Part shown: positions 16,334 through 44,958 of the stretch, piece after piece
Layout: every line of letters begins with the position of its first letter
Numbering within the stretch: position 1 is the first letter of the stretch
Assembly: GCA_002633005.1 (NCBI GenBank)
Contig: NMRA01001109.1
Coordinates: 1 to 44,978 of the forward strand
Direction: 5' to 3'
Length of the DNA: 44,978 bases
Origin: Phoronis australis
Taxonomy: Eukaryota; Animalia; Phoronida
Translations under genes and position numbers: made by a program
Notes under the pieces: model-generated
Databases searched by the model: none
Told to the model about the DNA's origin: nothing
Seen by the model: the letters and a program-made list of their open reading frames with translations, nothing else

Positions 16334-17674
16334 ATGGGACGTGGAATAACGGTCACTCAGACTAACAACCACATATCAGTGGAGAAGCAAGTCGCCGGCA
16401 AGCGGCAGGCCGTTCTTCGTTGTCCAGTCGACCTCAACCAGAACGGAGTTCGCCAACAAGACGAGGTGAACCGGCAGTCACCGCGGAAACTCATCGGAAT
16501 CAATGGTCTCTGGTATGACGTCACTGGTTTTGTGAAGCGGCATCCTGGCGGGCCCATTCTGGAACAGTTTATTGGAAAGGACGCGACCGAGGTTTACAAT
16601 GAATTTCATGGTGGCGATGTTTTAAAACATCGTAAGCCTGTAGGCAAATACAAACGAATGCCCGACCCTGCTGCCGTTGCGTTTGCTAGACTGCACAAAT
16701 ATTTCGTTGATAATGGATACTTTAGGACTAGTTGGTGTTGGTACCTTACTAAGGTCACTTTCACGTTCTCGTTGCTGGCGATGTGTTTTTATCTTGTCAC
16801 TCGTCAAGAGAACCTGTATCACTACCTTGGTGCCGTCTTCCTGGCTGCATTTTGGCAGCAGTGCGGTTTCTTGATGCACGACAGTATGCATACGCAAATT
16901 TCCCATGTGCCATACATTGACAAGTGGCTGGGAACGTTCTTCGGTACTGTTTGTTTCGGCGTGAACGCTCATTGGTGGAGAGCAGAGCATATAATCCACC
17001 ACGCTCTAACAAACACCGTCGACTACGTCACAGGTTTCTGCGATCCCCAGTCCAAAGAAGTGGTATGGGCGCAGAATGAGAAACTGTTTCCTTTCTTTGA
17101 ACATTGGCTGCAGTATTACGCCATCAAGATACAGCACATAACATTCGTGCCTTTTACCGTATGTCTTGGACGCATAGGTATAGCCATCGACAGCTTCATG
17201 TCAGAGACATGTGCGCGCGAGTGGGTCGCGTGCGCTCTTCACTACGCTTGGGTCTACTACATCCTCTCGTTGCTTCCAACATGGCGCACGGCGGCCATCT
17301 TTTACTATATGGCAGCTGTTCTGCAAGGTGTTCTACACGTGCAGTTGCTCATAAATCATTACAGTAAGCCTTTCTATGAACGAGAACAAGTTTGTCGTGA
17401 TATCAACTGGTACCGTATGCAGATTGAATGCAATATCAACATTCGCAACCCCTGGTGGTTTGACTGGTTTCATGGCGGTCTTAACTTCCACATTGAACAT
17501 CACCTATTTCCGCTCATGCCGCGGCACAACTTCCGGCGTGCCAGCAAGCACGTGAAACGCACATGTGCCGAACTGGGAATTGTGTACGCCGAAAGTGGCT
17601 GGTTCGAAACCGTACAGAACACGATAAAAAATTTGAAGCGATCTTCCAAACACTTCCGCCTCGATCCTAGGTGA
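16334..17674 (+). CDS. Cytochrome b5-fused front-end / sphingolipid delta-8-like desaturase, 446 aa, single coding exon
   Basis: N-terminal cyt b5 domain (WYDVTGFVKRHPGG...GKDAT...FH), His boxes HDSMH, HIIHH and HIEHH, hydrophobic TM stretches, and the C-terminal WFHGGLNFHIEHHLFPLMPRHNF typical of this family. AATAAA at 18051-18056. Confidence 0.95.
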   Translation: MGRGITVTQTNNHISVEKQVAGKRQAVLRCPVDLNQNGVRQQDEVNRQSPRKLIGINGLWYDVTGFVKRHPGGPILEQFIGKDATEVYNEFHGGDVLKHRKPVGKYKRMPDPAAVAFARLHKYFVDNGYFRTSWCWYLTKVTFTFSLLAMCFYLVTRQENLYHYLGAVFLAAFWQQCGFLMHDSMHTQISHVPYIDKWLGTFFGTVCFGVNAHWWRAEHIIHHALTNTVDYVTGFCDPQSKEVVWAQNEKLFPFFEHWLQYYAIKIQHITFVPFTVCLGRIGIAIDSFMSETCAREWVACALHYAWVYYILSLLPTWRTAAIFYYMAAVLQGVLHVQLLINHYSKPFYEREQVCRDINWYRMQIECNINIRNPWWFDWFHGGLNFHIEHHLFPLMPRHNFRRASKHVKRTCAELGIVYAESGWFETVQNTIKNLKRSSKHFRLDPR

Positions 17675-22902: not shown

Positions 22903-23828
22903 TTTAAAAACGAGTACCTTTCTTCGTGTTGAAATGTGCTTAATCTACGCGTAGTTTTGCTTTATCAACGCACTGAATTAGTTCGTAAACGATCACCGCT
23001 CTACTCTTCAACGCGCACATTTGCCGCGACGGAAGATTTTCTACACTGATGGGTGCAAGGCAACGTTTGAAGAATGTTGCAGATTCTTATACTTGATCGC
23101 GTTGATTAAGCACATTTCAGCGCGCAGAAATGTATTCATTTAAAAACCCTTTGGCGTTTCATACCCTTGGGCGAGTGCTTTTACGGACTCGCTGTTCGTT
23201 ATGCTTGAGATCCGGCCTCCCTGTCACTTCCGATCATCTGGGCACTCACTGGATATCTGTCCCGTACATTATTAGTCAACTTACACACAGGTTGACACTG
23301 AGCTCTTTCTAGTTCCGATGTGATTTTTGGAGCGTTTCATTAACCGCCAGTAGACATATCACAACATTAGTAAATAACCAGAACTGAAAATTTCCGCCAA
23401 TTGATAAATGCAATACTTAGGTATTAAATTGTGCCAATTTTGGGCAGGCAATGCTGACCCAATTTGTCACAATTCAGCAGTTTCACAGCTAGATAGTTTG
23501 GGCCGTTCCGTCAACTAAGGCCTGCACAGCGTGCAGTGCTTGAATCTCAATGTCCTTTTAAGTCATTTTGAAAGACAAAAATTAAATCAGTGCACCCAGT
23601 AATTCGTCCATTGAGTTGATTCATTTTCTGGCATTGACGCCAGTATAGCTTCAGTAAACCAGTATGAAACTGCCATAATGGTAAGCTTTGTTTTCTCCTG
23701 AAAATAGACCCACGGGAGCATTTTTGTGGGAGCGCAGTTCCGGACAGATTCTTGGTTGCAACAGCGAAGGCCTATAGGCCTACTTTTTTCACTTTATTGT
23801 CTTTGTCAACTGCGTTAATCTGCTACAG

Positions 23829-24077
23829 TGAACACTTGCTTCGAGAAAGACATCGATTTTGGAGCGAGAAGGCGTTACACCTATTTTGGCGGTTGCCGTA
23901 AGACGTGGGATGACGCCAACAAGTTCTGCAAGGCGCTGGGACAAGGAGGTCAACTGGCAGAACTACGAGTCAGGGAAAGTATTGACAAGGTACAGCAGAT
24001 CGCTGGCACAGCACGGAATGCATGGATCGGACTAAGGGCAGTGTCTTCTTATAATAAGGAATGGAAATGGATAAATG
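23829..24077 (+). CDS. Lectin exon: CTLD1 N-half
   Basis: ctacag|TG; KTWDDANKFC...LAEL...AWIGL...WKWING; G|gtgcgt. Confidence 0.85.
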
Positions 24078-27000
24078 GTGCGTGTTTTACTACGTCATCT
24101 TCAGCTATAGGGCTCTTCACCAAGCTACATGCATATACTTAGTGGTAGACTCGTCGCTATGTCAGACTAATAGCTCATATAAATTTAAAAAACTAAGCTT
24201 CTTGAAGAGCCCGAGTTCAATTGCAAAATATTTTTCACCTTTTACCAGTTCTCTGTAAGCAAGTGTTAATTTTGTGTTGTGAATCTCTTTTCTGTGCCGA
24301 CAGGTGATACGTTCAATCATTATGATATCGACATCTTGCCAAGGAGAGAACGCTACGCTTCTGCTAGGAAGCGCCTGTGTCTAGCAGTATCTGCCGGAGA
24401 TCCTTATCGACTGAGCGCCAAACTTTGTTACGGAAAACAACGTGTGGCTTGCCAGGTACCAGGTGAGAACTGACCAGTAACAAGGAATGTTCGAAATGTC
24501 AGGAAATGTTTTAGTGCGTATGAGTTCGTTCTTCAGACTGATTTCACATAAAGTGGTTATAACAAGAGAGTTTGAGATGAAATACTTAGCTGCAAACTAA
24601 ATTTGAAAATAGGAAAGTGAAAGGCACTCTCTTTCTGATTTGTAAATTGTTTTAAAACACGTCACAAGCAGACCAGAATTGTTAAGTCATCCGGAGCTAG
24701 ACTGAGCTTGAAAAAATAACAGAAATAACATTCACATTTAATGACAATAAGATATTCTCGTTTGACATGATATGATGTCAAACGACAGTATGACGTCGTT
24801 CTCTCACGTTCGCGTATGGCGACGTCATTATAAGCGAAATTGTCGTTCTCATGTAGTGACAACCCAAAGTAGGCCTAGTTGCGTGAACTGGGCAAAGGAG
24901 AGGAAAGAGTGCATTGTGAAGTTCGATAACAAGTATGAAAGTTGGTACGACGCTCAGTCATTCTGCTCTGGTCTTGGCGGCCACCTACCTGTGACGAATT
25001 ACGACAGAGGTAGAGAGGATTTGAAGAATCTTGCCTGGAGTCTACGTTATTCCAAGTTTGTGGCAAATTACTGGATAGGAGCAAGAAACAACGTCTGGTT
25101 ATGGGCAAGCGGTATGTAGTTTGAAAGGATTTGTAAACCACATTTTGGATTTCACAAAACCAGTTAAAGCGATACTGTGCCCGCTTTCCCAGGAACAAGA
25201 TCTTACGTAACTTCGGCTACGACAGAAATTCAACTTTGCCAAAAAAAATCACCCCGGTGGACACATGGCTCAACCGTGTGGAAAATTAGTGCTGGACAAT
25301 AGTATGATCCAAAGAAAGCAAGATTTGCCACTAAAACACCACAAACGCCTGACCCAAGTCAGTCGCAATATCTCAAGTGACCCGAGTTCACTCTAAGCGC
25401 AATCTTGCTGTACTAAGGTACTGTGTGCTACCAAAGATGTCAACTAAGTTGTGATATAGATCACAAGCCAATATGTTCTTACTCATGTGAAAACTGATGA
25501 CGTAGGCATGCAAAGAAATAACAGTTCAGATGCTCGTGCTCACAATGCACCGTCGGCAAGTCAACGCTCGGGTGCCTACGAACCCGCACCGTGACAAATC
25601 AACCGAGTTGGCTCTCGGGCAATAATGAACCGCCATTTCTTTTACGTCTTGAAATCGCCCCTAGTTTGACTTAATGATATTTTGTAACCAATTTCATAAC
25701 GGTCAAGCTTGGTTTTTATGATAGAAGACGCCAGGAGCAGCTTTTAACAGTCAGAACATTTTCGTCCTGTACACGTACTTTCGAACTAAAGTACACCGCC
25801 TAGTGGAAAAGAAGCAAATCAATTCTAGAATTGTCTGAACTTTGCAGAACTCGTGATGCCTTACTATAGTAATTTTATAACGTAGATTTTTACGTGATAC
25901 GAAATAAGATATCCTATTTCTGTGACTAGGTGAAACTGTGTTGAACTACTATTGGAATGATAAAGAACCCTCCTCAGCTGACGAGAATTGCGTGGAACTA
26001 CTTGGAAACGGTCATTGGAATGATGAGCGGTGTGGCAATAAAAAGACATTTCTTTGCCAACAAGGTAAAATCATCTCACGTCCAATCTTGAGACAGTTTA
26101 GTATATATCTCACGAAGTCAGGTAACACCATATATACAGGGTGTCCCACATATAAACATGTCAAGGAACCACATATACAGGGTGACCCACATATAAACAT
26201 GTCAAGGAACCACATACACAGGGTGTCCCACAACATATTAGTGTATCAGGGTGACGCTTAAAAAGGAACTAGTAGTTTTTCTTGTCCCAGGAATCCCAGT
26301 CTGGAGTAAATAAAACATAAAGCCGACGGTATTGTAAGCAACACAAACTTTCGAATCTTTGCTACATAGGCCTACTCACTAGTAGTACACTGAGGTTCAG
26401 GCCAAATTATAGTACAGGAGTTATCGACAAAGTTATGACCCAATGTTTTGCGTTATCGAGGAAATTGTGTTGATTTGAACAAAAGGTTGCGCTAGTTGAA
26501 TCAGAGGTGTTCGTGTGATGGATTTAGCAGTTTATAGAGAAGGCTGGACAGCCGTTTCTCATCGTCGAACATTTTTCTAAATTTTGTGCCTTGTAAAAAG
26601 TGGGCTTTCATGGAGTACAAAGCCATTGGGGCCCAGTAGATTTTCTGATATTCGTACTTCAAAGTATAGTTGTTGATTTTGGGACACACGTACTAGGCGT
26701 TAACATTTTTCAGGTGTTCAATGTATTGTTGATTTTGGTACACACGTACTAGGCGTTGACATCTTTCAGATATTCAAAGTATATTTGTTGTCTTTGGTAC
26801 ACACGTACTAAGCGTTATCATCTTTCAAATATTCTAAGTATATTTGTTGACTTTGGGTACACACGCACTACGCGTTAACATCTTTCAGATATTCAAACAA
26901 CAGTTTCAACAACAACACAGGGAATGACGTCAAAAGCATCCCCACAAACAACGGCACCCATGACAGCACCAACTACAGAAACAACACCGGTGGAGGCTGT

Positions 27001-29216: not shown

Positions 29217-32200
29217 CTGCAAGAATATCAAACAAAAGAACACCTCATCATTTCACGTTTACTCATATTTTATGACCTTTAGTGGAAGACGCATGAAGGA
29301 GAGTACTTCTCAGCCAATTTAATAACAAAATATTCCTAATTATTTATGAAATTCAACTTAATTTTTATCTGAGTAGCTGAGTTCCTAAAGGAAGTATGAG
29401 TTGATGTGGCACAATCCTCATAATCAATGACAGTTGTTCCACCAATGAATGTCTTCCATTAAGATACGAAGGTCAAGCTGATCCTGTGCTTTGTCACCAA
29501 GGTTACTTCAGAGGTGTTAAAGTACCATCATGACAAATAATTCCACCCTCCGCAAAGTCGTAATTAGCAAAGTTGCATATAAAAGTACTGGATTGGTTAG
29601 GAGAGTCATGTGATCAGATAAACGGTAATAACTAACAACCACATCATATCGGTGGAGTTACCCAAGACAACATGCCTGACAAAGGACACCTAAAATGTGC
29701 ATTAGTTGTACTTTTATGCTACAACTGGTCTGACTTACAGAGAACAACACAACACCCATACCTGCTGCCAACTTTATCGATCACTTCTTGGTTTGAGGCA
29801 AGAATAAAGTTCCCTGCACCATTTTCTTCTCCCACCGACAAGAAGAGTATCACATTCTGGAAATGAACAACACCTAAACAATGAGTTATCATACCACACA
29901 ATTCAGATTGGTTGAATGTACATGTACTTAATGCAAGTCAGTAGACTGTCTCACTACTCAGGACATTATCTCAAGATGAACAGTAAATACTTAAATGGAC
30001 ATGGGCGAAAACACTGTATATTTGACTAGATCCAGTCCCAAGAGGGATTTGAACCCATTGCCTCAGCCATGGCGTAGATTCAGTAAAATGCTTTGTAGGC
30101 AGTGGTAAAAGTTGCTGTGGCAGGTAGCTCAGAATTGAAGTGTTTCTAACTAGTGAGGCCATCTGATTCAATTTTACATGAAATGATGGTTTTTAATGAA
30201 ATCACAAGAACACAGTGAATTCTCGTGTTTTATCCCTCTCGCCAAAGTGAATAACTTTCCTACATAACAATAATCTCCAAAGTGTATTTTTCTCTCAAGC
30301 TGGTTGTCACAATTAAGCCACTCTGGCAGACTCATCAGTCCTCCTACCAAATTTAAAGTGTGCATTGCAGACAAAAATAAAAACATGTATTGCCAAAAAA
30401 AGCAAAGTTAGTTCTAGTCTGTACTCAGAAGATAAAAGTTGCTGCTCACGTTATGTTCAGCCAAGGTCTCCAACAAACCCACGATTAAAGTTTTCAGAAG
30501 ATAAGCGATATCAAGCGTTAGGAATATCTAATAACGGTTATCCCTAGTTCAAAAATTAGGTTTGATGACAAATGCTCATTCATTTCAATGTCTCACACTA
30601 TGGGGATGCCTAAAAACATTGTATTGGTGGCCAATTGCAAACATTTATTAATGAATTGCCTTTTTTATACAAAACTAAGTGTTCAATATTAGAGAAATAT
30701 GTTGAAGCCAAAATCACCAATGTCCCAATGTTAAAAGCCCAAAAAGTTTAATTTGGCTTGAAATTTGATCTCCAAAATATTAGGGACTGCACAAACTGGA
30801 AATTTTAACTATTATTCAAATTAATTAAAAAATCTTCAAATAAATGTAAAAAAATCTTCAAATAAATGTAAAACAAATTTGATCAGTTTGAAACCTCTAA
30901 GTGTACTTACAGGGTCATTAACTTCATTAACAATAATATTCATAAACTCATTATCTCCCTCCTTCCTGTGCAGACATAACAGGCGGCTAACTCCATTAGA
31001 CTTAAACTTTTGTGCTTCAAACACAGCGACATCACGAAGCAGTTGTGAGCATGCCTGAAAGAGAAATGAAAGCACATAGTAACTTTAGTGACCTTGAAAG
31101 GCATTATGGGAAACACATTCTCAGCTGAAGGTGCATACATTTCAAATCTGAATGAATTTTTAGAATGGGCAAACTTAGTGGGCTCAGAGTTCATAATAGA
31201 CACCATGATAATGCCGCCCCTTTAGGCCCATGGGCCTGTATCCGAAATTATGCCTTTTTAGCCAAGTGGTTAGCAAACTTTCACAGTTCTGCACAGACGC
31301 CTATGTTTCTCATATTAGCGCAGTTTCGCACAGACACCCACGGGCCTAATGACAAGGCAATATGGTAATTGCGTCCATCAATGCACAGTGTGCTGTGCCT
31401 AGAGTTCATAGTACATATCTCTGTCAATCAAACACACAAACTGAGTGTGCTGTCCAAGCTTGTGCAATATTATCCAAGCTTGTACAATATTGAACGTTAC
31501 TGACCAAGATTGAGCAATATTGACCAAGCTTGTGCAATATTGTCCACACTTGAGCAGTATTGTCAGAGTTTGTGTAATATTGATCAAGCTTGTGCAATAT
31601 TGTCCAAGCTTGCACAATGCTGTCTGAGCTTAAGCAATATTGTCTAAGCCTAAATGGGATTGCTATCTTCTTAGCTTGATCAATATTGGGATAATTAAGC
31701 ATTTTCCGTTTACTGTCATACCTTTCGACTGACTTGGAACGACTTTTGCATTTTCTCCACCAACATAGGGTGATCTTCAGGCTGATTTCTGAAATGTGAA
31801 CAAAAGTCATACAGATGTTGAATTCAACATGCAGGTAAAAACAGGGTGAGCTCTATAAGCACACTAGTCAGATCTTGTTGGCTTTACTGGCCTAAAAGAA
31901 ACAAAGTGAACATCAGAACTAAATGTATGTATGATTCCTTCTTTATATATGATTCGACTCTTCACAACAGTAATAGACTACATAGAGATGTGGCTCAACA
32001 CTATAACATTTTCAAAAACTTCTCGCTTCACTTTATTGTGATTCAGCATCATAGAAGTTTCCAGATAATACTACTCAGAAAAAATGAAAAGCAAATATGT
32101 TACAACTCATTTCCTAAATAAAGATGTTCCGGTCCCTTGACACACTATTTGAAGAAGAAGAACTGAGACTGTGCTAACATACTTGAGCAAAAAAGTGAGC

Positions 32201-35200
32201 GCCCCCTCCTGGTCACAATACTATGAGGCTGTGATAACATACTTGAGTACAGCAGTGAGCGCCCCCTCCTGGTCACAACACTATGAAACTGTAATAACAT
32301 ACTTGAGTAGAGCAGTGAGCACCCTCTTTTGGTCACAACACTATGAAACTGTGATAACATACCGTAAACTTGTGGGTTAACCCACGCCCATCCCCGACTT
32401 GGTCAATTTTCGGTTTAAGCACCCAATGCGTGGGTAATCGCCCATCCCCTACTTTGTGTTAATTTCCACGCAAGCGTCCACCTCTCGGTTAATCGCTCAT
32501 CCCCAATTTACCGCTTACAGAACTTGCGCTTAACCCTTATCCTGCTGAGCCTCTATTCAGACTACTTTCCCTGTGTGCTGAGCTAAGTAGGTCACCACTA
32601 CTGCTTTACACTAAGCTGTTCTGGAGGTCACCTAGACAAATGACCTAACAACTTTCAATTGGAAATTTGAAGGGGAAATATTAAATTAACAGAAAAGAAG
32701 TCAATACGAAACTTGTGCAGAATTTAATGGAGAATTTCACCATATATAAGTCTTTATCATAGCCTTGGTGAAAGTAAACTGATCCACTGTCATCCTCTCC
32801 CGTATGGCTCCAGCCATATAATGAAACTATGTGTCTACACTTACATAAACCTGCCAATATCTCCCAAACTAGTAATCACAGCCATATGGTTTAAATTGGA
32901 GAACAGTAGAGGAAGTTGTGAAGTATGGAATGCTCATGGTCACATATCTAAACAACATTCCAGGGCTCTTACAATTTCTGAATGAAAATCACAAGTGTCC
33001 TGGGGTGAGTGCACTCTCCTAGCGCAGCCCAGCTGTAACTTATTATAGTCGATTGAGTACACCCAACGCTTTTTAATAGGATAATTGGCATGTCGGCTGA
33101 CCTCGCCTAGCGCAGGATAAGGGTTAAACTCATGCTTTTGTTCACAGCTTTGCATACGATTTTCTCGAACAGTATGTTTTTCAGCCGGCGTTTGTGGAAT
33201 AACTCAAGCGCACAACCACCTTTTTTAAACTTATCAACTGATCTTTTGTTAAATTAATATAGGTCTACTCCGTAGATTTTTATAGAAGTGAAGCTAGTCT
33301 ACTACGAGATTACCCGTACGACGTCCTGGACGTCAACGGCGTAGGTTGTCTAGGTTACAAGTCTTTGAATTATCTAGTCTAAATTTTTTCGTATCAGACA
33401 TTATTTCTGGGATTTTTTCGAGTTCAGTAAATCAAATTTTTTGAGTGTTTGGCGAGAACAGGTGAAACTTCGAAGCATCACCATGTATTTTTAGACGGAG
33501 CACTTGATTTTTTACCCATATTTGAATTGACCAATTAATCTATCCCCCCTCCCATTGTAATTAAACACATAGATCACGTGATTTTGATACATTTATTTCC
33601 TGGGTCAACACAGATTTGAATTGAATAATTATTCACAAATCCCTCTCATTGTAATTGCAAACGGTTTGTGTCGGTCAGGAACAAATAGTTCGTGTTTTTA
33701 AACCAGCGACAGATAAACTAAACAGTGAATCGAAAGTTTATCGGGTTTAATACGCAGATGACATTAACAACAACCAGACGGGACCGGAGGGGTTCCAAAT
33801 AAAAACAGTCATACAAACAACACTAACAGTACAATGGCGCTGGAAACGACATGTAGTCCCATTCACTGATCTGAAACAGTGCTTGCTGATACTGTAAGTG
33901 CCATTTGAGTTTCATAAAGCTCCGTGGAGTGACATTTTGCAGCACACTAACATATTTGAAAACATTGGACTTTTTAACAACGTTCTCGCAAAATCGAAAT
34001 CCTGTTTCTGTTTGAGCCGTGAGAAATTTTGTGGTTGTCTGGTCCTGCTGTTTGACCAAACTTACAAGTTACGCGCTCGAATGAACAACCCGTGAGCTTG
34101 CCCAGTTTGGCTAAAACTTGGACGTAAGTGGCCACTACTTGGGTAATTGCCCACATCCAACTTTTTGCCAATTTTTCGGCTTAAGCGCCCACTGCTTGAG
34201 TAATCGCCCACCCCCTGTCTCAGGGTTTCCCAATTTAAGGGCCAAGGGGTTAACCCGCGAGTTTGAGTAAAGCAGTGAGTGCAATCTCTTGGTCACAATG
34301 CTATGAGACAGTAATAACATACTTGAGTAGAGCAGTGAGCGCCTTCTCCCGGTCACAACACTGCTGTAGGTAGTCCAAGACACGGTTACCAACCAGGAAC
34401 ACTAGATTACATTTGTTCTTCTTTCCTTTCTCGACACTCAGCAGCTTGACAGCCTGGAGTGTAATGGAGGAACACAAACAGTTAGAGGAGAACAATAAAC
34501 TAGATCTGTACACTCAGCAGCTTGACAGCCTGGAGTGTAATGGAGGAACACAAACAGTTAGAGGAGAACAATAAACTAGATCTGTACACTCAGCAGCTTG
34601 ACAGCCTGGAGTGTAATGGAGGAACACAAACAGTTAGAACAATGAACTAGATCTGCATCTAGCTCATTGGTCAGAAACAACAACAAAGAACATCCCACTT
34701 GAGAGCTATATATATTACGAGGCACATCATTGAAACATGAACACTGTTGTCCATGTTTGCACAGGATCTCAATTATCTTTCGTAAAACTGCAGCAGTTTC
34801 AAATCTATTTACATTTAGAATCAGGCAAATATGGGAGTATTGCTGCATGGGTCCGACATTCCTACAGCCTAGTTAACAAGTATTCCAGGTCAAAGTGTAA
34901 TTTTGTAACATTTTCATTCGTTAATACAAGTTCTACGTATGTTGCGTGTTGCAGTGCTGACACAAGAAATTGTAGAGCAGAGACAGAAAGTCATTTGCTA
35001 GTAGTGAAACACTCCATGTCCACCAGATGGCACTAGTGCATTAGAGGTTCTACCTTTACTATCTGAATAATTTCAAAAATCTGTTGACCAAGTCAGGGTA
35101 ACACATGATTTCCCGACAGCATGTATTTACAGGGGAGACAATCATTACCACTGGTGCCACTGAATTTCAGAAAGGTATAACCTGTGTTCACCTGTAGATG

Positions 35201-36471
35201 ACTTAGACTGGAAACGTGTGTTCCACAACACATGTTATCCTCCATCCCGTCTATAGTAACAATGCGTATTGATCCGTCTACATCATCGGGAAGGCCACGC
35301 GTCCGAGCCTAGAGGCAAGCAGTTCATATTGAATCTGACAGTCAATACAACATTACTGTAGTTTTCAAAATGAACTGGTCAGACTTTGGTAGCACCTGAT
35401 CAAACTCTGTCAAATTTTGGAATTTTATGCCACGGGAATTTAGCAAGGACACAAAATGTCTGTCTGCTTACATTCTCGTCGAACTTAAAATGGATATCAA
35501 TTTGTGATAATTGCACCAAGCTAACAGTGTTCAGTTCGAAAGGTAAATTTTGACAAAACTGTGTGAGAACTGAAACGGACGCTTGTTGACGGAAAGTAGC
35601 CTTTAGCCACACTAAGTGTTGTCAAAACAAAGTTCAAAATTGTCCGACCACTTTATTTTGAACACTGCTGTAGGACCATTGCAACACTAGTGCCACCTAC
35701 AGGTTTATCTGCTCACAACATCTCTACCTGTAGATGACTTGTATTTGATACATGCGTTCCACAGCAGAGGTCATCTTCAATACCATCAATAGTCACAATG
35801 CGAACCGATCCCTCAAGATCATCAGGGAGACCACGTGTCCTTGCCTAGAGGCAAGCAGACGACATTTTGAAGCTAAGTAAAAACACTGACCAATGACCAT
35901 AACAACTGTGAACACACTAACCGTCACTACTATGAACAAACTGACCATAACTACAATGAACAAACTGACCATAACTACAATGAACAAACTGACCATAACT
36001 ACAATGAACAAACTGACCATAACTACTGTGAACACACTGGCCATAACTACTGTAAACTTTTTGACAATTTAAGACACAATATGGCTGCCTAGTGAAAGTT
36101 TTATTTTTCAGCAGCATCAAATTAAATATTTATCAAATTAAATATTTAACCCTTTTCCTGTTTTGTATCATCAAACAAAGTGCTAAAAAACTGTGGGCAT
36201 ACAAACCTTTGAAATATGAAAAAATGGCATTTTGCTAATTTTTTGTCTAACATTGGTGAAATTTTACCGTCAATTACTCTAAGCTGAATTTTGTGCCAAA
36301 TCATTTCATAATATTCCTTACAACCATTGGATTCTACTCCCGTTACCAATTTAAGCCATGGGCAAAGAGTACATGCAGCATTTTTGACTTTGGAATTTTA
36401 GGTTTGGTCATTCCCAGTTAAGTCTAAAGCAATATCTTGAGACGCTCGTGGTTTCAGCATTCTTGTTGATA

Positions 36472-36507
<36 letters not shown>

Positions 36508-39500
36508 ACACACACACAGACATACAGACAATCCTATCATAGTAAGGACTATTACGAGACTGATTTTATGAGTGAGAGTAAAAGCCATAAACAGGGTGAA
36601 ACTTTAAACATAAATATTCTCGGATTTTTGTCCAACTTTAAGTGTTCAGTATAACACCTTAAGTACTTTAAGTGTTCAGTATAACACCTAAAGTACTTTA
36701 AGTGTTCAGTATAACACCTAAAGTACTTTAAGTGTTCAGTGTAACACCTAAAGTAGTATTCCGTTCATTCACTGGCAACAGTGTGACACTTCTTTAGACT
36801 AATAAATATGCAACTAGCTGCCGACATCACTCCCAGACACAGGTTAGGACAATCCTATAGGTTGGCACACAACATATTACGGACGACCAACTTTAATGTC
36901 TCTCACAAGGTCAACTTCAACAACTAGCTAACAGTTGCTCAATGCTTTAGTATTCAATACATCAAGAAGTCTTAAGTTTAATAAATACACAATAGACTGA
37001 TTCACTAGTGCAATTAGCTGCAAACTTAGTTTTAATTTGGTGACTTCAGTAAGACCTCAATATTAGAGCATGAAGCTTTTTCTTTTCTCAACACTGGCAG
37101 TCTCAAGTATCTGGACACATCAACAACAACATTCAACGATGTTCATCTAAGTTTGACAAAGTTCTGGCACAGTGATGAATACTACAACTAAAGGAGTTTT
37201 CCAGGAAATTTCTGGTTCAAGATGAATAGAGATAAATCCAACTGATTTTGAAAATTAACAAATTCTGCAACTCTTCTGGCAGAACGGGAAAGTGTATTTA
37301 GATGAGGAGTAACGGGGGAGGGGGAGGGGAGTTAATTTACCTCACTCAAGCGGGGGTCATTTTTATCGTCATACAGCGTTACCGTGACCCCGATGCCAGC
37401 TCTAATTTTGTCATTGGTAGTGTCCTCAATGTACCGCATCTCCTCCAGTGTCAGGGTGGGGGCATCCAACTCTATGAATGATGTCTTTTCACCAAGCCAC
37501 CTGCAATGGAAAATAACTTTAGTGACGAGCCTACCTATGTCTGCCAAAAAGTACAACAGTACTCTCAATCAATTGAAAGTTTTCTAAGAAGACTAGAAGT
37601 ATCCTTTCATATTGTTTCTATAGCATAAATCCCAGTATTCTCTAGAACTGAAGAAAATTGAAATCCATAATATTTGATAGTTTCTGTCAATGCTGCTGTT
37701 TGCTATACCGCAATGTGTCACTGAGTTCTCTAAGTTTACTTGTACACTTGTTGAATTCAAAGACCACCATACAGCAGATACACAAACTGTATGGGTTTCA
37801 CAAACACAGAGAAACTTGGGACTGGAGTTGCAACCTTCCTGCTTGAGAAGAAAAGTGACACACCTATACAATACCAAGTAAGACAGACCTTTCCATAACA
37901 ACACCCCTGAAACTGGACTCAACCATTGTCACCAATAACAACGACTGCTCGCCAAATGAGGGCATGATCATAGTACAACAACAGCAATACTAGATTTGAA
38001 AACTTGTAACTATGAAGAGTTTGTATGTTACCGTATTCGCTGTAATAACCGCCCATGCCCCTATAAGCGCCCCCCCACTTAGCTAAAATAAGTGCCCAGT
38101 CCACGAACATGTATGAGCGAAAAATGCCTTACCTACAGTCCTAAAATTCTACAGTAACGTCTTCAATTTATCGATAATATCCGACAGTCCTGAAAAAATC
38201 ATTGTGCGCAGAATTTGTAGACCACGATCCTCGCCGCTGTCGGTATTTAGCCGTGACTATACACTTCAAACTTTCGCCATGCCTCAAAACGAACACAAAA
38301 GTTTTGCTGATCTTGCGAGGACCAATGGTCTGCCAGTGGCCTTTCAGAACAGACGTAGTGTACTTGTCTACGGGACTGCTTTGTAGATATTTCCCGGTTT
38401 CAACAGGAATCCAAATTTCTTTGTACACGTGAAAACCGCGAATCGAAGACTACTAAACAGCTTGGCCAGTGTTAAAAGCATGTGGCCAGGAAGCGCGCGC
38501 TACATACATGAACCTGTCATCAAAGACATTACTCAGGAACTATCCATTCATGAAACGAGTAGCATAGCGTCGGCAAGAAATGAATATTGGCACTAATTTC
38601 CAACAGTTTCTAATACTATAAACAAGAGCAACGCGGAGGATTGTAATACGCAAAAAAACAAGACTGCCACTAGGAGGCGCCACAAAAGTCGAAGTCGTCA
38701 GAAAATCATCATCAACCGTCCTCTTTATAGTAAGAACATACATGCCAATTTTCGCAATCATGCTTACAACGGTTTGGTTGAAAGAGGGGCGAATGCTAAA
38801 AAACAGACTCGAAAACAGTAAAAATGGCCACTAGGTGAATCCATCCGAAAACGGGAGGATACCGTCGTCTCACTAATATGTGCCTATATACCAAATTTTG
38901 TGAAAATATGTCGAGGACCTTTGAAGACACAGAGGTAAACGTAAAAAACTAAAATTGCCACTAGGGGGCACATCGGTAGTCAGATCCGTCCAAAAGTTCG
39001 CTCATGCCGTACCATCCATGAAAGGAACATAATATGTGCAAAATTTCATGAACATACGTCAATCGTTTTGGAGATAGAGCAGCGGATGCCGCACGCCGGA
39101 CGGACAGAGATGACGGCATGATGCGTCCACATATAAATATGTGGGTGCATAAAAATGTTTGCGTTACTTTTAAGATGAATTGTTTGATTAACCATAATTG
39201 GTGTTTTTAAGCCAAATATCCGATAAAATGACCATTGACAGTGAATGCTTACACACCCTTACATCGAAAAATAACTGTCAGATAGTAACGTACGCATCCA
39301 GCCACAGGGCGACTAATATGGGCCTTACCAAAACAAATGTCGAACATTTTTAGCACATGAGAGATGAGACCGGCAAGTGCTGAATGAAACACGCTCTGGT
39401 TTAGGCCTACTGCTTGTGCAAATTTCTTTAGGTACAATGCACATCTAGCTAGCTCGTTAGATTGCGTGGCTTTGGCCAAAAGACGGTATTTGCTCTGGCA

Positions 39501-42500: not shown

Positions 42501-44958
42501 CTTTACAAAAGATTTTTAAAACCTTTTCAATTGATTTCTATATAAAATAAAATCAATGAAAAAGTCAACCTCAAACCTGCAGGACATGTATGACAATTGA
42601 AAGTAAGTGGAGTTCCTTGCTTTCCAGTTCTTATCAGGCCAAGACAACTACAGATTTCCAGTCCGAGTCCCACTAAATAACAATTTGCATCAGTAATGAC
42701 AGACAGGTAATCCAATCAATACCACAGTGACTCAGGCCTTCAGAGGCACTTGCTTCCTCACAGCCATACACTTACAATTAAAAGAATTGTTAATATTACT
42801 TTTAGTAATCCTCAAATATCAATATCTATCTCTGCTTAGAACTCTTTTGGGATAGAAGTAAGATTTCTCATTCTCAGGTTTGCAGTCCTTCTTGAAATCA
42901 ACCATAATTTAGGTTAAAATGTTTTTCAGTAAATCTTATTAAAACTTTTGGAAGTACATCTGATATAAACTTGTTGCAAAATACATCATAAAACATATGT
43001 TTGTATGTACTCTCAACAGATGGCACTTTATATGCATGTCAACGGATGGTAGTTTGTATGCATGTCAACAGATGCACAGTGAACAGATGGCATTACCTGA
43101 GTGTTGTTGCATGTGATCAAATCTTCTCAACCAATCCAGCTTGATGTCAACATCAGTGTCTGCATCTAATGGGCTCGGCACAAAGTGGCGGACATCTTGA
43201 CCACACTTCTCCACTCTCAGAACATCTATTCCATTTATCTGATATTCAAAACATAGAAAATTGAGAAAATGACAATCAAAGTACTGAACTGCCATGGACG
43301 GGATATCTTAACTAAGAAGAGATACAGACATCATGGGATTGGGACATAACTTACTGCCTTGTCAATAGATGGTGCTCACACTTTTATTTCCCAGTAGGTG
43401 TCAGGGGTAACCTTTTTGCAAAACTCAATTTCTCACTTGAGACACAACATCATCAAGACATTGTCCATTGAAACTTGACAGTGAGTGGAGAGCTGGTTTG
43501 AAAGTCATTGAGTGCAAGAATACCTTCACATGTTTAACACACTTATTCTGTACCATCAACACATCTGCTCTTTCTAAATGTCAACTGTAGTATTCCTATT
43601 ACTTAGTCTTCCTTGAAAGGGTTGTTATCTCGCCTGTGTTGGACTAGCAAGAGCCAGGAATGAACACTTGAGGAACACAAGAACACTGAATCTGTTCACA
43701 CAAACAGAGGCTCATCATGTTTTGTTTTGTTGTTCTGTTTGATTGACATGACCCCTCAGTTCAGAACAGTGATGGTGTGATTTGTTTACTGTATAGTGTG
43801 GAACTTTCTAGAAGACTCTAGCATGACAGTGATTAATGCAGTCTAGAATATTCTAGAGACTAGGACATGTTTTTAGAATGATTGGGTAGATTCCAGAAAG
43901 GTCTAGAAAGTGCTTTAATTAGTGAAAAGTTCTAGAACATTGCATTAGTCTATAAATACACAAGCACGGGTTTGTATTAGTCAGTAAAGCAGTTAACAGT
44001 TAAACAGTTGAGAGAATTACAGCTGATTTGTAGTTAAGAGAAATCAGCAGTTACAGCAAGAGTCAATAACGTTTTGTTTGAGTAGGCTTGTGAACATTCA
44101 ATCGAGGTTAATAAAGTAATTAACTCGAACAAGTCTTTAGTCTTTCGTCACACTGAAAGCTATCAGCACCGGTTAGTAACCACACACGGGGAAAAGTGTG
44201 AAAATACCGCAAGAACGGTAAGTCGTAGCAAGAACGGTAAGTCGTAGCAAGAACGGTAAGTCGTAGCAAGAACGGTAAGTCGTAGCAAGAAACAGGACTT
44301 CACAATGATGATTGTAATTGAAAAGACCTCTCCACATACCAAATTTCAAACATATCCATCAAGGGACCCCGAAGATACGGCGCTAAAACTCAGTTATTTG
44401 GAGACCAGTTCGCAGAAAAACTCTATTCACTTGAGAATGGCAAGAACTACAGAACACCAAAAGAGACATTTGAATGATATATCCACCGAAAGAAAAATCA
44501 GAAAGATAAAATCCCACCAGAAAAAGCTGAGCTATGGTTGCGAGTTCGCAAACAAAAAAGAAGAAAATGGCTGTCACAGTCATTTTATAAGAATTTCATA
44601 CAAAAAACAAAAGGCTTCGAGCCATTCACGAAAGACATGTTGACAGTAAACTTGGCATTGACATCATAAGAACTGCGAACTGTAGCACTAGAACAAAAAA
44701 CAAACAAAAACAAAACAAATCAAACAAATTTTATGACAATGCAACATACTTCAAGAAATTTTATTTCATCAAGTCACAAGAGTGAAATTGTTAATTCAAA
44801 CACACAATTACCTTTCCCCTGTCATCAGGTTGCCCACCCCCCTCCGGGAATAGAATGGTATCTTCCAAGATGACATTAAACCCATTCAGTGTGGCCTTCT
44901 TACCATTGGAAACTTGTTTAATGGATGCTGGTTCACAGGAGACGACCTTTGACCTGAA
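29090..44958 (-). CDS. AARSD1: Alanyl-tRNA editing protein AARSD1 (AlaXp); first exon lies beyond the window end
   Basis: Exons 44812-44958, 43097-43238, 42330-42387 (identical copy 40490-40547), 37341-37500, 35728-35844 or 35192-35308, 34323-34453, 31722-31788, 30911-31054, 29762-29856 and 29090-29216 splice in frame via GT-AG. Recognisable motifs: LEDTILFPEGGGQPDDRG, RRFDHMQQHSGQHLITA, CCGTHV, HRKEGDNEFMNII, LEGKGAGKKG. Confidence 0.95.
29762..29856 (-). CDS. AARSD1: AARSD1 exon 10
   Basis: NVILFLSVGEENGAGNFILASNQEVIDKVGS-R; |gtatgg. Confidence 0.9.
30030..30165 (-). mobile_element. Possible tRNA-derived SINE remnant
   Basis: Minus-strand B box GGGTTCAAATCCC with a weak A-box-like tggcctcactagttaga about 100 nt upstream; no cloverleaf. 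Confidence 0.3.
30911..31054 (-). CDS. AARSD1: AARSD1 exon 9
   Basis: ACSQLLRDVAVFEAQKFKSNGVSRLLCLHRKEGDNEFMNIIVNEVNDP; |gtaagt. Confidence 0.93.
31450..31650. repeat. 20-bp minisatellite (tgtccaagcttgtgcaatat)n
   Basis: About 10 degenerate copies. Confidence 0.85.
31722..31788 (-). CDS. AARSD1: AARSD1 exon 8
   Basis: NQPEDHPMLVEKMQKSFQVSRK; tttcag| ... |gtatga; phase fits both neighbours. Confidence 0.85.
32165..32361. repeat. 57-bp tandem repeat copied from the AARSD1 exon 7 3' end and donor
   Basis: taacatacttgagtagagcagtgagcgcc...ggtcacaacact units; one more copy at 34262-34322 abuts exon 7. Confidence 0.9.
32362..34264. mobile_element. Tc1/mariner-superfamily (pogo/Tc2-like) non-autonomous element in AARSD1 intron 7
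   Basis: TA|CCGTAAACTTGTGGGTTAACCC ... GGGTTAACCCGCGAGTTT (right tip deleted); subterminal taatcgccca repeats at both ends. Confidence 0.65.
34323..34453 (-). CDS. AARSD1: AARSD1 exon 7
   Basis: AVKLLSVEKGKKNKCNLVFLVGNRVLDYLQQCCDREKALTALL-K; |gtatgt. Confidence 0.93.
34435..34660. repeat. 76-bp tandem triplication spanning the AARSD1 exon 7 acceptor
   Basis: cactcagcagcttgacagcctggagtgtaatgg... at 34435, 34511 and 34587. Confidence 0.95.
35024..35699 (-). promoter_or_regulatory. Putative docking site (35024-35039) and selector sequences (35149-35160, 35684-35699) for exon 6a/6b choice
   Basis: In the pre-mRNA, GCACUAGUGCCAUCUG pairs with UAGGUGGCACUAGUGU (16 bp including G-U) or with GUGGCACCAGUG (11/12). 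Each selector lies about 30 nt after its exon's donor. Confidence 0.6.
35192..35308 (-). CDS. AARSD1: AARSD1 exon 6b (alternative editing-site exon)
   Basis: ARTRGLPDDVDGSIRIVTIDGMEDNMCCGTHVSSLSHLQ; 117 nt, phase 0/0; ctctag| ... |gtgaac. Confidence 0.9.
35728..35844 (-). CDS. AARSD1: AARSD1 exon 6a (alternative editing-site exon)
   Basis: ARTRGLPDDLEGSVRIVTIDGIEDDLCCGTHVSNTSHLQ; 117 nt, phase 0/0; ctctag| ... |gtagag. Confidence 0.85.
35885..36057. repeat. 24-bp minisatellite (ctgaccataactacaatgaacaaa)n; second array at ~41097-41222
   Basis: Direct tandem copies. Confidence 0.9.
36635..36755. repeat. 30-bp minisatellite x4
   Basis: ctttaagtgttcagtataacacctaaagta units. Confidence 0.9.
37341..37500 (-). 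CDS. AARSD1: AARSD1 exon 5
   Basis: WLGEKTSFIELDAPTLTLEEMRYIEDTTNDKIRAGIGVTVTLYDDKNDPRLSE; ttgcag| ... |gtaaat. Confidence 0.93.
38187..38449 (-). pseudogene. Degenerate HIRAN-like coding fragment within the TIR element
   Basis: SSIRGFHVYKEIWIP...DKY...PRKIS...LRHG...CIVT, then a frameshift to GLQI...MIFSG. Matches from memory the RGxHVYKxxW...PRxIS...CxVT...GLEIP pattern; no search was run. Confidence 0.55.
38620..39155 (+). mobile_element. HINE/DINE-1-like (Helentron-associated) non-autonomous element nested in the TIR element
   Basis: Starts aacaagag; two caaattt(t/c)(g/a)tgaa core repeats; GGAC microsatellite; terminal stem-loop atgcgtccacatat-aa-atatgtgggtgcat followed by AAAAA. Confidence 0.6.
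40124..40443. repeat. 21-bp minisatellite (ctccagttcagtggtgcatgc)n; also 42124-42283
   Basis: About 15 tandem copies. Confidence 0.95.
40490..40547 (-). CDS. AARSD1: AARSD1 exon 4 (copy B, identical)
   Basis: Same 58 nt and splice sites as 42330-42387, inside a duplicated segment on the other side of the N-gap. Confidence 0.7.
42330..42387 (-). CDS. AARSD1: AARSD1 exon 4 (copy A)
   Basis: GQHLITAVINEKYGYDTTSW, 58 nt; ttttcag| ... |gtaggt. Confidence 0.85.
43097..43238 (-). CDS. AARSD1: AARSD1 exon 3
   Basis: INGIDVLRVEK...LDWLRRFDHMQQHS-G; |gtaatg. Confidence 0.95.
43776..44152 (+). mobile_element. Solo-LTR-like element with heat-shock elements
   Basis: TGTGA...TCACA termini, clustered TTCTAGAA-type motifs, TATAAATA at 43951, AATAAA at 44110; no convincing TSD, boundaries uncertain. 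Confidence 0.55.
44209..44290. repeat. 19-bp minisatellite (gcaagaacggtaagtcgta)x4+
   Basis: Direct tandem copies. Confidence 0.9.
44812..44958 (-). CDS. AARSD1: AARSD1 exon 2
   Basis: FRSKVVSCEPASIKQVSNGKKATLNGFNVILEDTILFPEGGGQPDDRGK; ttacag| ... |gtaatt. Confidence 0.95.

What the first reader, a model, noticed from the sequence alone, without database searches (positions are those of the whole stretch)
35024..35699. Competing docking-site/selector RNA pairings positioned to choose between exons 6a and 6b
Seen, in pre-mRNA sense: element D (35039-35024, GCACUAGUGCCAUCUG) lies downstream of both exons. S1 (35699-35684, UAGGUGGCACUAGUGU), 28 nt after the 6a donor, forms 16 contiguous pairs with D including three G-U. 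S2 (35160-35149, GUGGCACCAGUG), 31 nt after the 6b donor, pairs 11/12 with the same bases of D. The surrounding intron copies are otherwise barely alignable. S1:D would loop out 6b, whereas S2:D leaves 6b available. The 419-nt intron between the exons is too long for steric exclusion, and double inclusion would stay in frame, so an active mechanism is needed. Known: a downstream docking site with competing selectors governs mutually exclusive splicing in insect 14-3-3 zeta and Dscam exon 4 clusters. Caveat: D and S1 also resemble convergent CTCF motifs (CCACCAGATGGCACTA, CCTGTAGGTGGCACTA), an alternative DNA-level explanation.
Basis: partly seen in the sequence, partly recalled or inferred. 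Interest (0 to 1): 0.85.

Follow-up and report, generated by a model that had tools for sequence, protein, structure and literature searches.

The report
Splice-site-hiding hairpin between twin exons
An invertebrate tRNA-proofreading gene (AARSD1) splices in one or the other of two twin exons about equally often, and a short intron element is predicted to make the choice by either folding over the first exon's splice site or pairing with a distant site that would loop out the second exon.

Summary
The elements are real as described. RNA reads show both 117-nt AARSD1 exons in use: exon 5 joins 6a in 23 reads and 6b in 22, and no 6a-6b joint is listed. S1:D (16 bp) beats shuffles (2 of 300), though equally strong helices occur elsewhere in the window. 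S2:D is weak: at most 0.001 in 12 long folds, and 7-9 kcal/mol uphill. S1 plus five upstream bases forms a 13-bp hairpin over the 6a donor (0 of 3000 shuffles; none of 30 orthologous donors comes close). Best model (0.5): the hairpin hides the 6a donor, so 6b is used, unless D captures S1, loosens that donor and loops out 6b. This is a donor-side mirror of human ATE1 joined to a downstream docking site. Two linked alleles in D keep the pairing (P about 0.19, weak). The CTCF likeness is real but partly follows from complementarity to the exon end. No close relative was available, so conservation is untested. The scan noted a similar donor-burying hairpin once in another genome (unchecked).

The parts
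37341..37500 (-). AARSD1 exon 5 (constitutive, upstream)
   Evidence: tblastn of homologues; loose read ends at both 6a and 6b acceptors match its 3' end
35728..35844 (-). Exon 6a, 117 nt, carries the CxxxH zinc-ligand motif (Pfam PF07973 tRNA_SAD)
   Evidence: spliced reads; its 2 SNPs are synonymous
35726..35738 (-). 6a exon end plus donor GU: 5' arm of the 13-bp donor hairpin
35692..35704 (-). M, anti-donor arm (5 bases upstream of S1 plus the first 8 of S1); can pair 13 bp with the 6a or the 6b exon end
   Evidence: no variant listed in covered runs
35684..35699 (-). S1, 16 nt complementary to D; its last 8 nt lie outside the donor hairpin and would be a toehold for D
   Evidence: toehold role inferred
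35354..35672 (.). TA-flanked insertion with 31-nt terminal inverted repeats (MITE-like); intron is 102 nt without it
   Evidence: inverted repeat I5; similar 33-35 nt ends with other flanks in contigs and reads
35320..35377 (-). Predicted hairpin over the 6b branch-point region
   Evidence: P 0.91-0.98; z -2.4 sense, -3.8 antisense
35192..35308 (-). Exon 6b, 117 nt, 31 of 39 residues identical to 6a
   Evidence: spliced reads; its 3 SNPs are synonymous
35149..35160 (-). S2, paralogue of S1 (11 of 12 identical); an 8-nt insertion separates it from its anti-donor half
35024..35039 (-). D, downstream partner of S1; alleles at both terminal positions turn G-U into A-U
35020..35033 (+). Exact match to a recalled CTCF consensus, overlapping D
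35690..35703 (-). One-mismatch CTCF consensus match overlapping M/S1; the mismatched base is the one that pairs with the A of the donor CAG
34323..34453 (-). AARSD1 exon 7 (constitutive, downstream)
   Evidence: loose read ends at both donors match its start

Best explanation
Exons 6a and 6b are tandem copies of the catalytic exon of AARSD1 that are spliced in one at a time, and the 21-nt intron element after 6a (M/S1) likely acts as a switch: it is predicted either to fold back over the 6a donor, which would give 6b, or to be captured by D, which would loosen the 6a donor and loop out 6b. Shown: both exons are used, each joined to exons 5 and 7, and the complementarities exist. Computed: the donor hairpin dominates (P 0.98) until D is transcribed; the hairpin, S1:D and M:6b-donor states then lie within about 3 kcal/mol of each other; opening the 6a donor costs 13.5 kcal/mol in the hairpin and about 9 once S1 is held by D or by the 6b end. 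Inferred: D invades through the 8 free bases at the 3' end of S1 and displaces 8 of the 13 hairpin pairs; the race between this and commitment of exon 5 to 6b sets the roughly even ratio; S2 is a minor decoy for D, not an equal selector. Inferred origin: duplication of the exon together with one arm of an older S:D intron hairpin.
For: Junction reads in three RNA runs: 5-6a 8, 8, 7; 5-6b 10, 7, 5; 6a-7 8, not listed, 8; 6b-7 13, 3, 6; no 6a-6b joint listed in 7 runs laid. All 5 exonic SNPs are synonymous. Donor hairpin, 13 bp, -19.7: 0 of 3000 intron shuffles, 5 of 3000 with S1 held fixed; best of 30 distinct orthologous exon-6 donors -11.5; the 6b donor's own best -3.5. It is stronger on the transcribed strand (z -3.61 against -1.54). 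All 5 non-Watson-Crick positions in the hairpin and S1:D are G-U on the transcribed strand. The three states cost 0.1-3.0 kcal/mol at 20 and 37 C. Donor opening falls from 13.4-13.6 to 8.9-9.3 kcal/mol. Both variants in D keep pairing, and none is listed in M/S1 or S2. Precedent for splice-site masking by a central element: ATE1 (PMC7797038).
Against: No cross-species conservation or covariation could be tested: 0 of 80 metagenome loci and 0 of 346 proteins show a second exon-6 copy, and all are distant. The allele evidence is weak: P about 0.19 that two D variants keep pairing, P about 0.42 for no variant in 33 nt, the two variants are linked, and the helix energy is unchanged. P(S1:D) swings from 0.001 to 0.95 with the window folded. 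The mean unpaired probability of the 6a donor did not rise when S1:D formed (0.13-0.30 against 0.36), and that donor stays harder to open than the 6b donor. M:6b pairing is not independent evidence: 22 of 30 orthologous exon ends could also form 12-13 of its 13 pairs. Helices as strong as S1:D occur at about 7 other places in the window. The extension of S1:D is marginal (183 of 3000). Read counts are low, joints under 3 reads are not listed, and skipping of both exons was not measured.
Confidence: 0.5

Rival explanations
1. The inverted repeats are neutral relics (a decayed transposon end pair or a short template-switch foldback). Exclusivity comes from something else: weak donors, protein repressors, or crowding, since the insertion's terminal repeats could fold away 317 nt and leave an effective intron of about 100 nt.
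For: The genome is rich in inverted repeats: 16 of 134 tile-strands hold stronger helices. S1 and D lie in a longer, decayed inverted repeat of about 29-33 nt. A MITE-like element sits in the same intron. The 6b branch hairpin is stronger on the untranscribed strand.
Against: The donor hairpin is centred on the splice site, beats all nulls and favours the transcribed strand. The terminal repeats pair with P at most 0.03 in folds that include the exons, though 0.8-0.9 in the intron alone. A donor-to-branch distance near 70 nt is probably above the steric limit (recalled as about 50-60 nt).
Confidence: 0.23
2. One reading: D is a classical downstream docking site, and S1 and S2 are two competing selectors, S1:D giving 6a and S2:D giving 6b.
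For: The layout matches insect downstream docking sites (PMC4691838 passages; PMC6071210). S1 and S2 keep 11 of 12 identity although four-fold sites of the exons match at only 6 of 17; simulated chance 15 of 2000 at 41% background identity and 126 of 2000 at 52%. S2:D closes the isolated local fold, and S2 is near D, which could favour it kinetically.
Against: S2:D is 11 kcal/mol weaker than S1:D, at most 0.001 in 12 long folds and 7-9 kcal/mol uphill, yet 6b is used as often as 6a. The model gives no reason why 6a is silent when S2:D forms; the donor hairpin does.
Confidence: 0.15
3. D and S1 are two convergent CTCF sites acting on DNA (insulation or polymerase pausing after each exon), and their RNA complementarity is a by-product of opposite orientation.
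For: D is an exact and S1 a one-mismatch match to a recalled consensus; the window holds 7 such matches against 0.23 expected. The allele at 35024 still fits the consensus. CTCF orthologues are reported in molluscs and annelids, and a CTCF motif was the commonest in open chromatin of one annelid (PMC10658182 passages).
Against: The reverse complement of the exon end differs from the first 12 consensus positions at only 2, so any anti-donor element looks like CTCF. S1's single mismatch is the base needed to pair with the donor. S1:D runs 6 bp past the consensus. S2 keeps the D-pairing half and has lost the CTCF half. The sites are only about 660 nt apart.
Confidence: 0.12

Closest known systems
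Human ATE1 exons 7a/7b, R1-R3-R4 competing pairings (PMC7797038)
   Same: Two tandem mutually exclusive exons; one element in the intron between them is complementary to the equivalent splice-site region of both and can hinder only one at a time; a further long-range pairing reaches the downstream intron.
   Different: ATE1 hinders the 3' splice sites; here the 5' splice sites. In ATE1 the long-range R2:R5 pair is a separate module 30 kb long; here the same 21-nt element also makes the long-range pair, over 660 nt. ATE1 is conserved and proven by mutation; this case is neither.
Downstream docking site and selectors of insect 14-3-3 zeta, Dscam1 exon 4 and 9, Mhc and MRP1 (as described in PMC6071210 and PMC4691838; the primary 2011 paper was not seen)
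   Same: One site downstream of the cluster is complementary to a paralogous element after each exon; pairing with the first loops out the second exon.
   Different: The second selector is predicted to be largely ineffective, and the first doubles as a donor-masking arm, so docking would release a repression as well as bring sites together.
Dscam1 exon 6 balancer pairings (PMC8791459)
   Same: A pairing that masks a splice site competes with docking-site pairing to even out exon choice.
   Different: Balancers mask an acceptor and act over kilobases in a 48-exon cluster; here a local hairpin masks a donor in a two-exon cluster.
Stem-loop arm duplication model for MXE origin (PMC6071210)
   Same: The exon and one hairpin arm appear duplicated together (S1 and S2 paralogous, D single).
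   Different: After duplication the distal copy kept, and the proximal copy lost, complementarity to the donor; the part of the paper read (part 1 of 5) does not describe this.

Membership tests
Downstream docking-site/selector MXE cluster | Tandem homologous exons used one at a time | tested here: met
   5-6a 23 reads, 5-6b 22 reads, no 6a-6b joint listed (threshold 3 reads). Skipping of both not measured.
Downstream docking-site/selector MXE cluster | One downstream site complementary to an element after each exon | tested here: met
   S1:D 16 of 16, S2:D 11 of 12
Downstream docking-site/selector MXE cluster | Each selector can win the docking site | tested here: inconclusive
   S2:D at most 0.001 in 12 long folds and 7-9 kcal/mol uphill, but present in the isolated local fold
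Downstream docking-site/selector MXE cluster | Conservation with compensatory changes across species | not testable with these tools
   No close relative found; within-species alleles keep pairing, P about 0.19
Downstream docking-site/selector MXE cluster | Disruptive and compensatory mutations change and restore exon choice | not testable with these tools
   needs minigenes or editing
ATE1-type central element masking either splice site | Element between the exons complementary to the same splice site of both | tested here: met
   13 bp with each donor end; the second pairing follows largely from protein conservation (22 of 30 orthologues)
ATE1-type central element masking either splice site | Masked sites are the 3' splice sites | tested here: not met
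   The strong helices cover the donors; acceptor helices are 8-12 bp and not dominant in the folds
CTCF binding site | Match to the core consensus | tested here: met
   D exact, S1 one mismatch, S2 none at two mismatches; consensus recalled
CTCF binding site | Occupancy by CTCF | not testable with these tools
   needs ChIP or footprinting
MITE (35354-35672) | Terminal inverted repeats, TA at both ends, dispersed related ends | tested here: met
   31-nt arms, 81% complementary; TA at both ends; related ends with different flanks in contigs of X1, X2, X4 and reads of X5, X6. No empty allele seen; superfamily not tested.
AARSD1 / AlaX-L | HxxxH and CxxxH editing motifs, tRNA_SAD domain, orthologous exon series | tested here: met
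   role of the CxxxH cysteine from PMC11260482 passages

The most novel reading that the evidence does not exclude
One 21-nt intron hub has three mutually exclusive partners (the 6a donor, the 6b donor and D) and switches by toehold strand displacement during transcription. The same bases double as convergent CTCF sites, so a CTCF-induced pause at D would set how long the 6a donor stays hidden: a single element read as DNA by CTCF and as RNA by the spliceosome, choosing between two versions of a tRNA-proofreading active site.
Probability: 0.1. Interest if true: 0.85.

Novelty: new variant of a known kind. Interest (0 to 1): 0.55.

Why it matters
Docking models explain how the downstream exon is looped out but usually need an unnamed repressor to keep the other exon silent (PMC6071210 introduction). 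Here the selector itself is predicted to be that repressor, by hiding the donor until docking. The whole unit fits in about 850 nt, and each helix can be broken separately, so it is a compact test of the idea outside insects and vertebrates. It also gives two versions of the catalytic exon of AlaX, an enzyme reported to edit several serine-charged tRNAs (PMC11260482 passages). My searches listed no title or abstract start describing duplicated AARSD1 exons.

Tried and rejected
No whole genome was held. Look-alike stretches in other scanned genomes: none. Rfam on 34600-36000 at E up to 1: 0 matches. Metagenome scan: the best 80 of 108 confirmed loci were kept; none has a second exon-6 copy within the flanks held or intron similarity to D, S1 or S2; 2 of 80 have a CTCF-like match downstream, both in coding sequence. 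For the donor null I kept 30 of the 80 loci, dropping those without a GT/GC intron, with under 100 nt of flank, or near-duplicate. Protein searches: none of 346 proteins has two CGTH motifs; the closest named ones are from Lingula and Owenia, so the host is probably a lophotrochozoan (weak). An allele effect on the 6a:6b ratio from contig depths (X4 381 against 69) was rejected, because the 6b contig includes the retained intron and contig depth is flat; X6 carries the D alleles and is near 1:1. Unspliced reads at the 6a donor (6 in X5) are too few to show slow splicing. Pairings of the acceptors with 35716-35707 and 35471-35442 (8-12 bp) were treated as chance level. The steric model via the insertion's terminal repeats was not favoured in folds with the exons. 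Literature searches for a donor-masking MXE switch gave 0 papers, 4 reviews or catalogues that I saw only as listings, and nothing relevant for CTCF with inverted repeats or for RNA pairing in molluscs, annelids or amphioxus.
Full report
Setting. The minus strand of 29 kb-45 kb encodes AARSD1 (AlaX), by tblastn of homologues and named database hits. The exon that carries the CxxxH editing motif is duplicated: 6a (35844-35728) and 6b (35308-35192) are 117 nt each, 88 of 117 bases and 31 of 39 residues identical, and both score as Pfam tRNA_SAD. The closest named proteins are from Lingula and Owenia, so the host is probably a lophotrochozoan; this is weak, and no close relative was found.

Observation. 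S1:D is 16 pairs with 3 G-U at -26.3 kcal/mol and S2:D is 11 of 12 at -15.4. S1:D is the best helix in 35900-34700, and 2 of 300 dinucleotide shuffles match its energy; 45 of 300 match its length. Among 134 overlapping tile-strands of the window, 16 hold a stronger helix, at about 7 other places. So the helix is more than shuffled chance but not rare in this repeat-rich genome; its position is what matters.

Splicing is real. About 18-19% of each of three raw RNA runs was read (X5, X6, X7). Loose read ends match exon 5 and exon 7 as read. Counts: 5-6a 8, 8, 7; 5-6b 10, 7, 5; 6a-7 8, not listed, 8; 6b-7 13, 3, 6. No 6a-6b joint was listed in any of the 7 runs laid; the tool lists joints from 3 reads, so up to 2 per run could be hidden. 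Contigs of X3 and X4, labelled DNA by guess, are spliced too. The stretches laid did not include exons 5 and 7, so skipping of both is unmeasured. All 5 exonic variants are synonymous.

S1 with five upstream bases (M, 35704-35692) pairs 13 bp with the last 11 bases of 6a plus the donor GU (35738-35726), -19.7 kcal/mol. This was reached by 0 of 3000 shuffles of the intron and by 5 of 3000 with S1 held in place. The best value among 30 distinct orthologous exon-6 donors was -11.5, and the 6b donor's own best local helix is -3.5. The hairpin region folds better on the transcribed strand (z -3.61) than on the other (z -1.54). It has P 0.98 in every fold that stops before D. M can pair equally with the 6b exon end, but 22 of 30 orthologous exon ends could form 12-13 of those pairs, so that adds no independent evidence.

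Energetics. With D present, forcing the hairpin costs 0.1-2.7 kcal/mol, S1:D 0.4-1.7 and M:6b 1.1-3.0, whereas hairpin plus S2:D costs 7.0-9.0 (two windows, 20 and 37 C). P(S2:D) was at most 0.001 in 12 folds, and P(S1:D) ranged from 0.001 to 0.95 with window and allele, so only near-degeneracy, not a ratio, can be claimed. S2:D does close the isolated 146-nt fold, at an ordinary z of -0.69. Opening the 6a donor costs 13.4-13.6 kcal/mol in the hairpin and 8.9-9.3 when S1 is held by D or by the 6b end; the 6b donor costs 3.7-7.2. Against the model, the mean unpaired probability of the 6a donor did not rise when S1:D formed: the donor finds shorter partners and is loosened, not freed.

Alleles. 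Across 34660-35191 and 35309-35727, 25 intronic substitutions were listed. Two fall in D, at 35024 and 35039, together on one contig in X2 and X4 and in reads of X6 and X7. Both turn a terminal G-U pair of S1:D into A-U. The chance that two D variants keep pairing is about 0.19, and the chance of none in M/S1 and S2 is about 0.42; X6 does not cover M/S1. The helix energy is unchanged, and P(S1:D) rises modestly (0.27-0.29 to 0.47-0.48). This is consistent with the model but weak.

CTCF. D matches a recalled consensus exactly and S1 with one mismatch; the window has 7 matches against 0.23 expected, so such motifs are a feature of this genome. However, the reverse complement of the exon end is itself 2 mismatches from the first 12 consensus positions, so an anti-donor element and its complement look like CTCF sites by construction. 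S1's one mismatch is the base that pairs with the donor, and S2 kept the D-pairing half while losing the motif. Binding is untested, and a dual role is not excluded.

The middle intron. 35354-35672 has 31-nt terminal inverted repeats and TA at both ends, and related ends with other flanks occur in several contigs and reads: a MITE-like insertion into a 102-nt intron. Six of the 7 variants in this intron lie inside it. Its ends pair in the intron-only fold but not in folds with the exons, where the right end forms a hairpin over the 6b branch region instead; that hairpin is stronger on the untranscribed strand.

Mechanism. Shown: exon use and the complementarities. Computed: hairpin first, then near-equal alternatives. 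Inferred: while only 6a has been transcribed its donor is hidden; if exon 5 commits to 6b first, 6b is used; if D invades through the 8 free 3' bases of S1, the 6a donor loosens and 6b is looped out. I put this at 0.5, neutral relics at 0.23, the classical S1/S2 docking model at 0.15 and CTCF alone at 0.12.

Comparison. It would work like ATE1, where R3 between the exons competes for R1 and R4 and hinders one of two 3' splice sites (PMC7797038: abstract, section 14 and passages), but on the donor side. It is laid out like insect downstream docking sites (PMC4691838 passages; PMC6071210 part 1 of 5), and it shares the masking-versus-docking logic of Dscam1 balancers (PMC8791459 passages). PMC11260482 and PMC10658182 were read as passages. 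No supplements were read; catalogues of duplicated exons in such files could list AARSD1. Membership in the docking family is unproven, because conservation and mutational rescue could not be tested and the second selector looks weak. Searches for AARSD1 exon duplication and for a donor-masking MXE switch listed nothing that describes this case; the library lacks most subscription papers.

Verdict. A real, expressed, apparently lineage-specific pair of mutually exclusive catalytic exons, with an unusually strong donor-masking hairpin coupled to a downstream partner. New variant of a known kind; interest 0.55.

Noticed in passing
window 41212-40284 (minus strand): A 158-nt copy (95.6%) of the 6a acceptor region 36000-35843 is joined to a 696-nt copy (93%) of 42808-42124 that carries a second exon 4, next to an N gap. 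Either a partial tandem duplication of the gene or two haplotypes assembled in series.
   Followed up: partly
window 34429-34656: The exon 7 acceptor and first bases lie in a 76-nt repeat with three copies, giving three candidate acceptors; all listed reads use the last copy. The other two would shift the frame.
   Followed up: partly
window 35320-35377: Hairpin over the 6b branch region, formed partly by the insertion's right end; stronger on the untranscribed strand.
   Followed up: partly
window 35723: Variant at donor position +5 of 6a in 6 of 6 unspliced X5 reads; it lies in the hairpin loop.
   Followed up: no
window 35845-35858 and 35309-35322: The last 14 intron bases before 6a and 6b are identical, although four-fold sites in the exons match at only 6 of 17.
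   Followed up: partly
window 38667-38971, 32199-32272, 43391-43404: Five more CTCF-consensus matches, all inside this gene, two of them in 60-nt repeats that resemble the end of exon 7.
   Followed up: no
exons 6a and 6b, residue 10: Both copies replace the histidine found at this position in 245 of 285 homologues where the motif was found (Leu in 6a, Val in 6b).
   Followed up: no
window 16334-17674 (+) and 23819-25116 (+): An intronless cytochrome b5 plus fatty-acid desaturase reading frame, and C-type lectin domain exons.
   Followed up: partly
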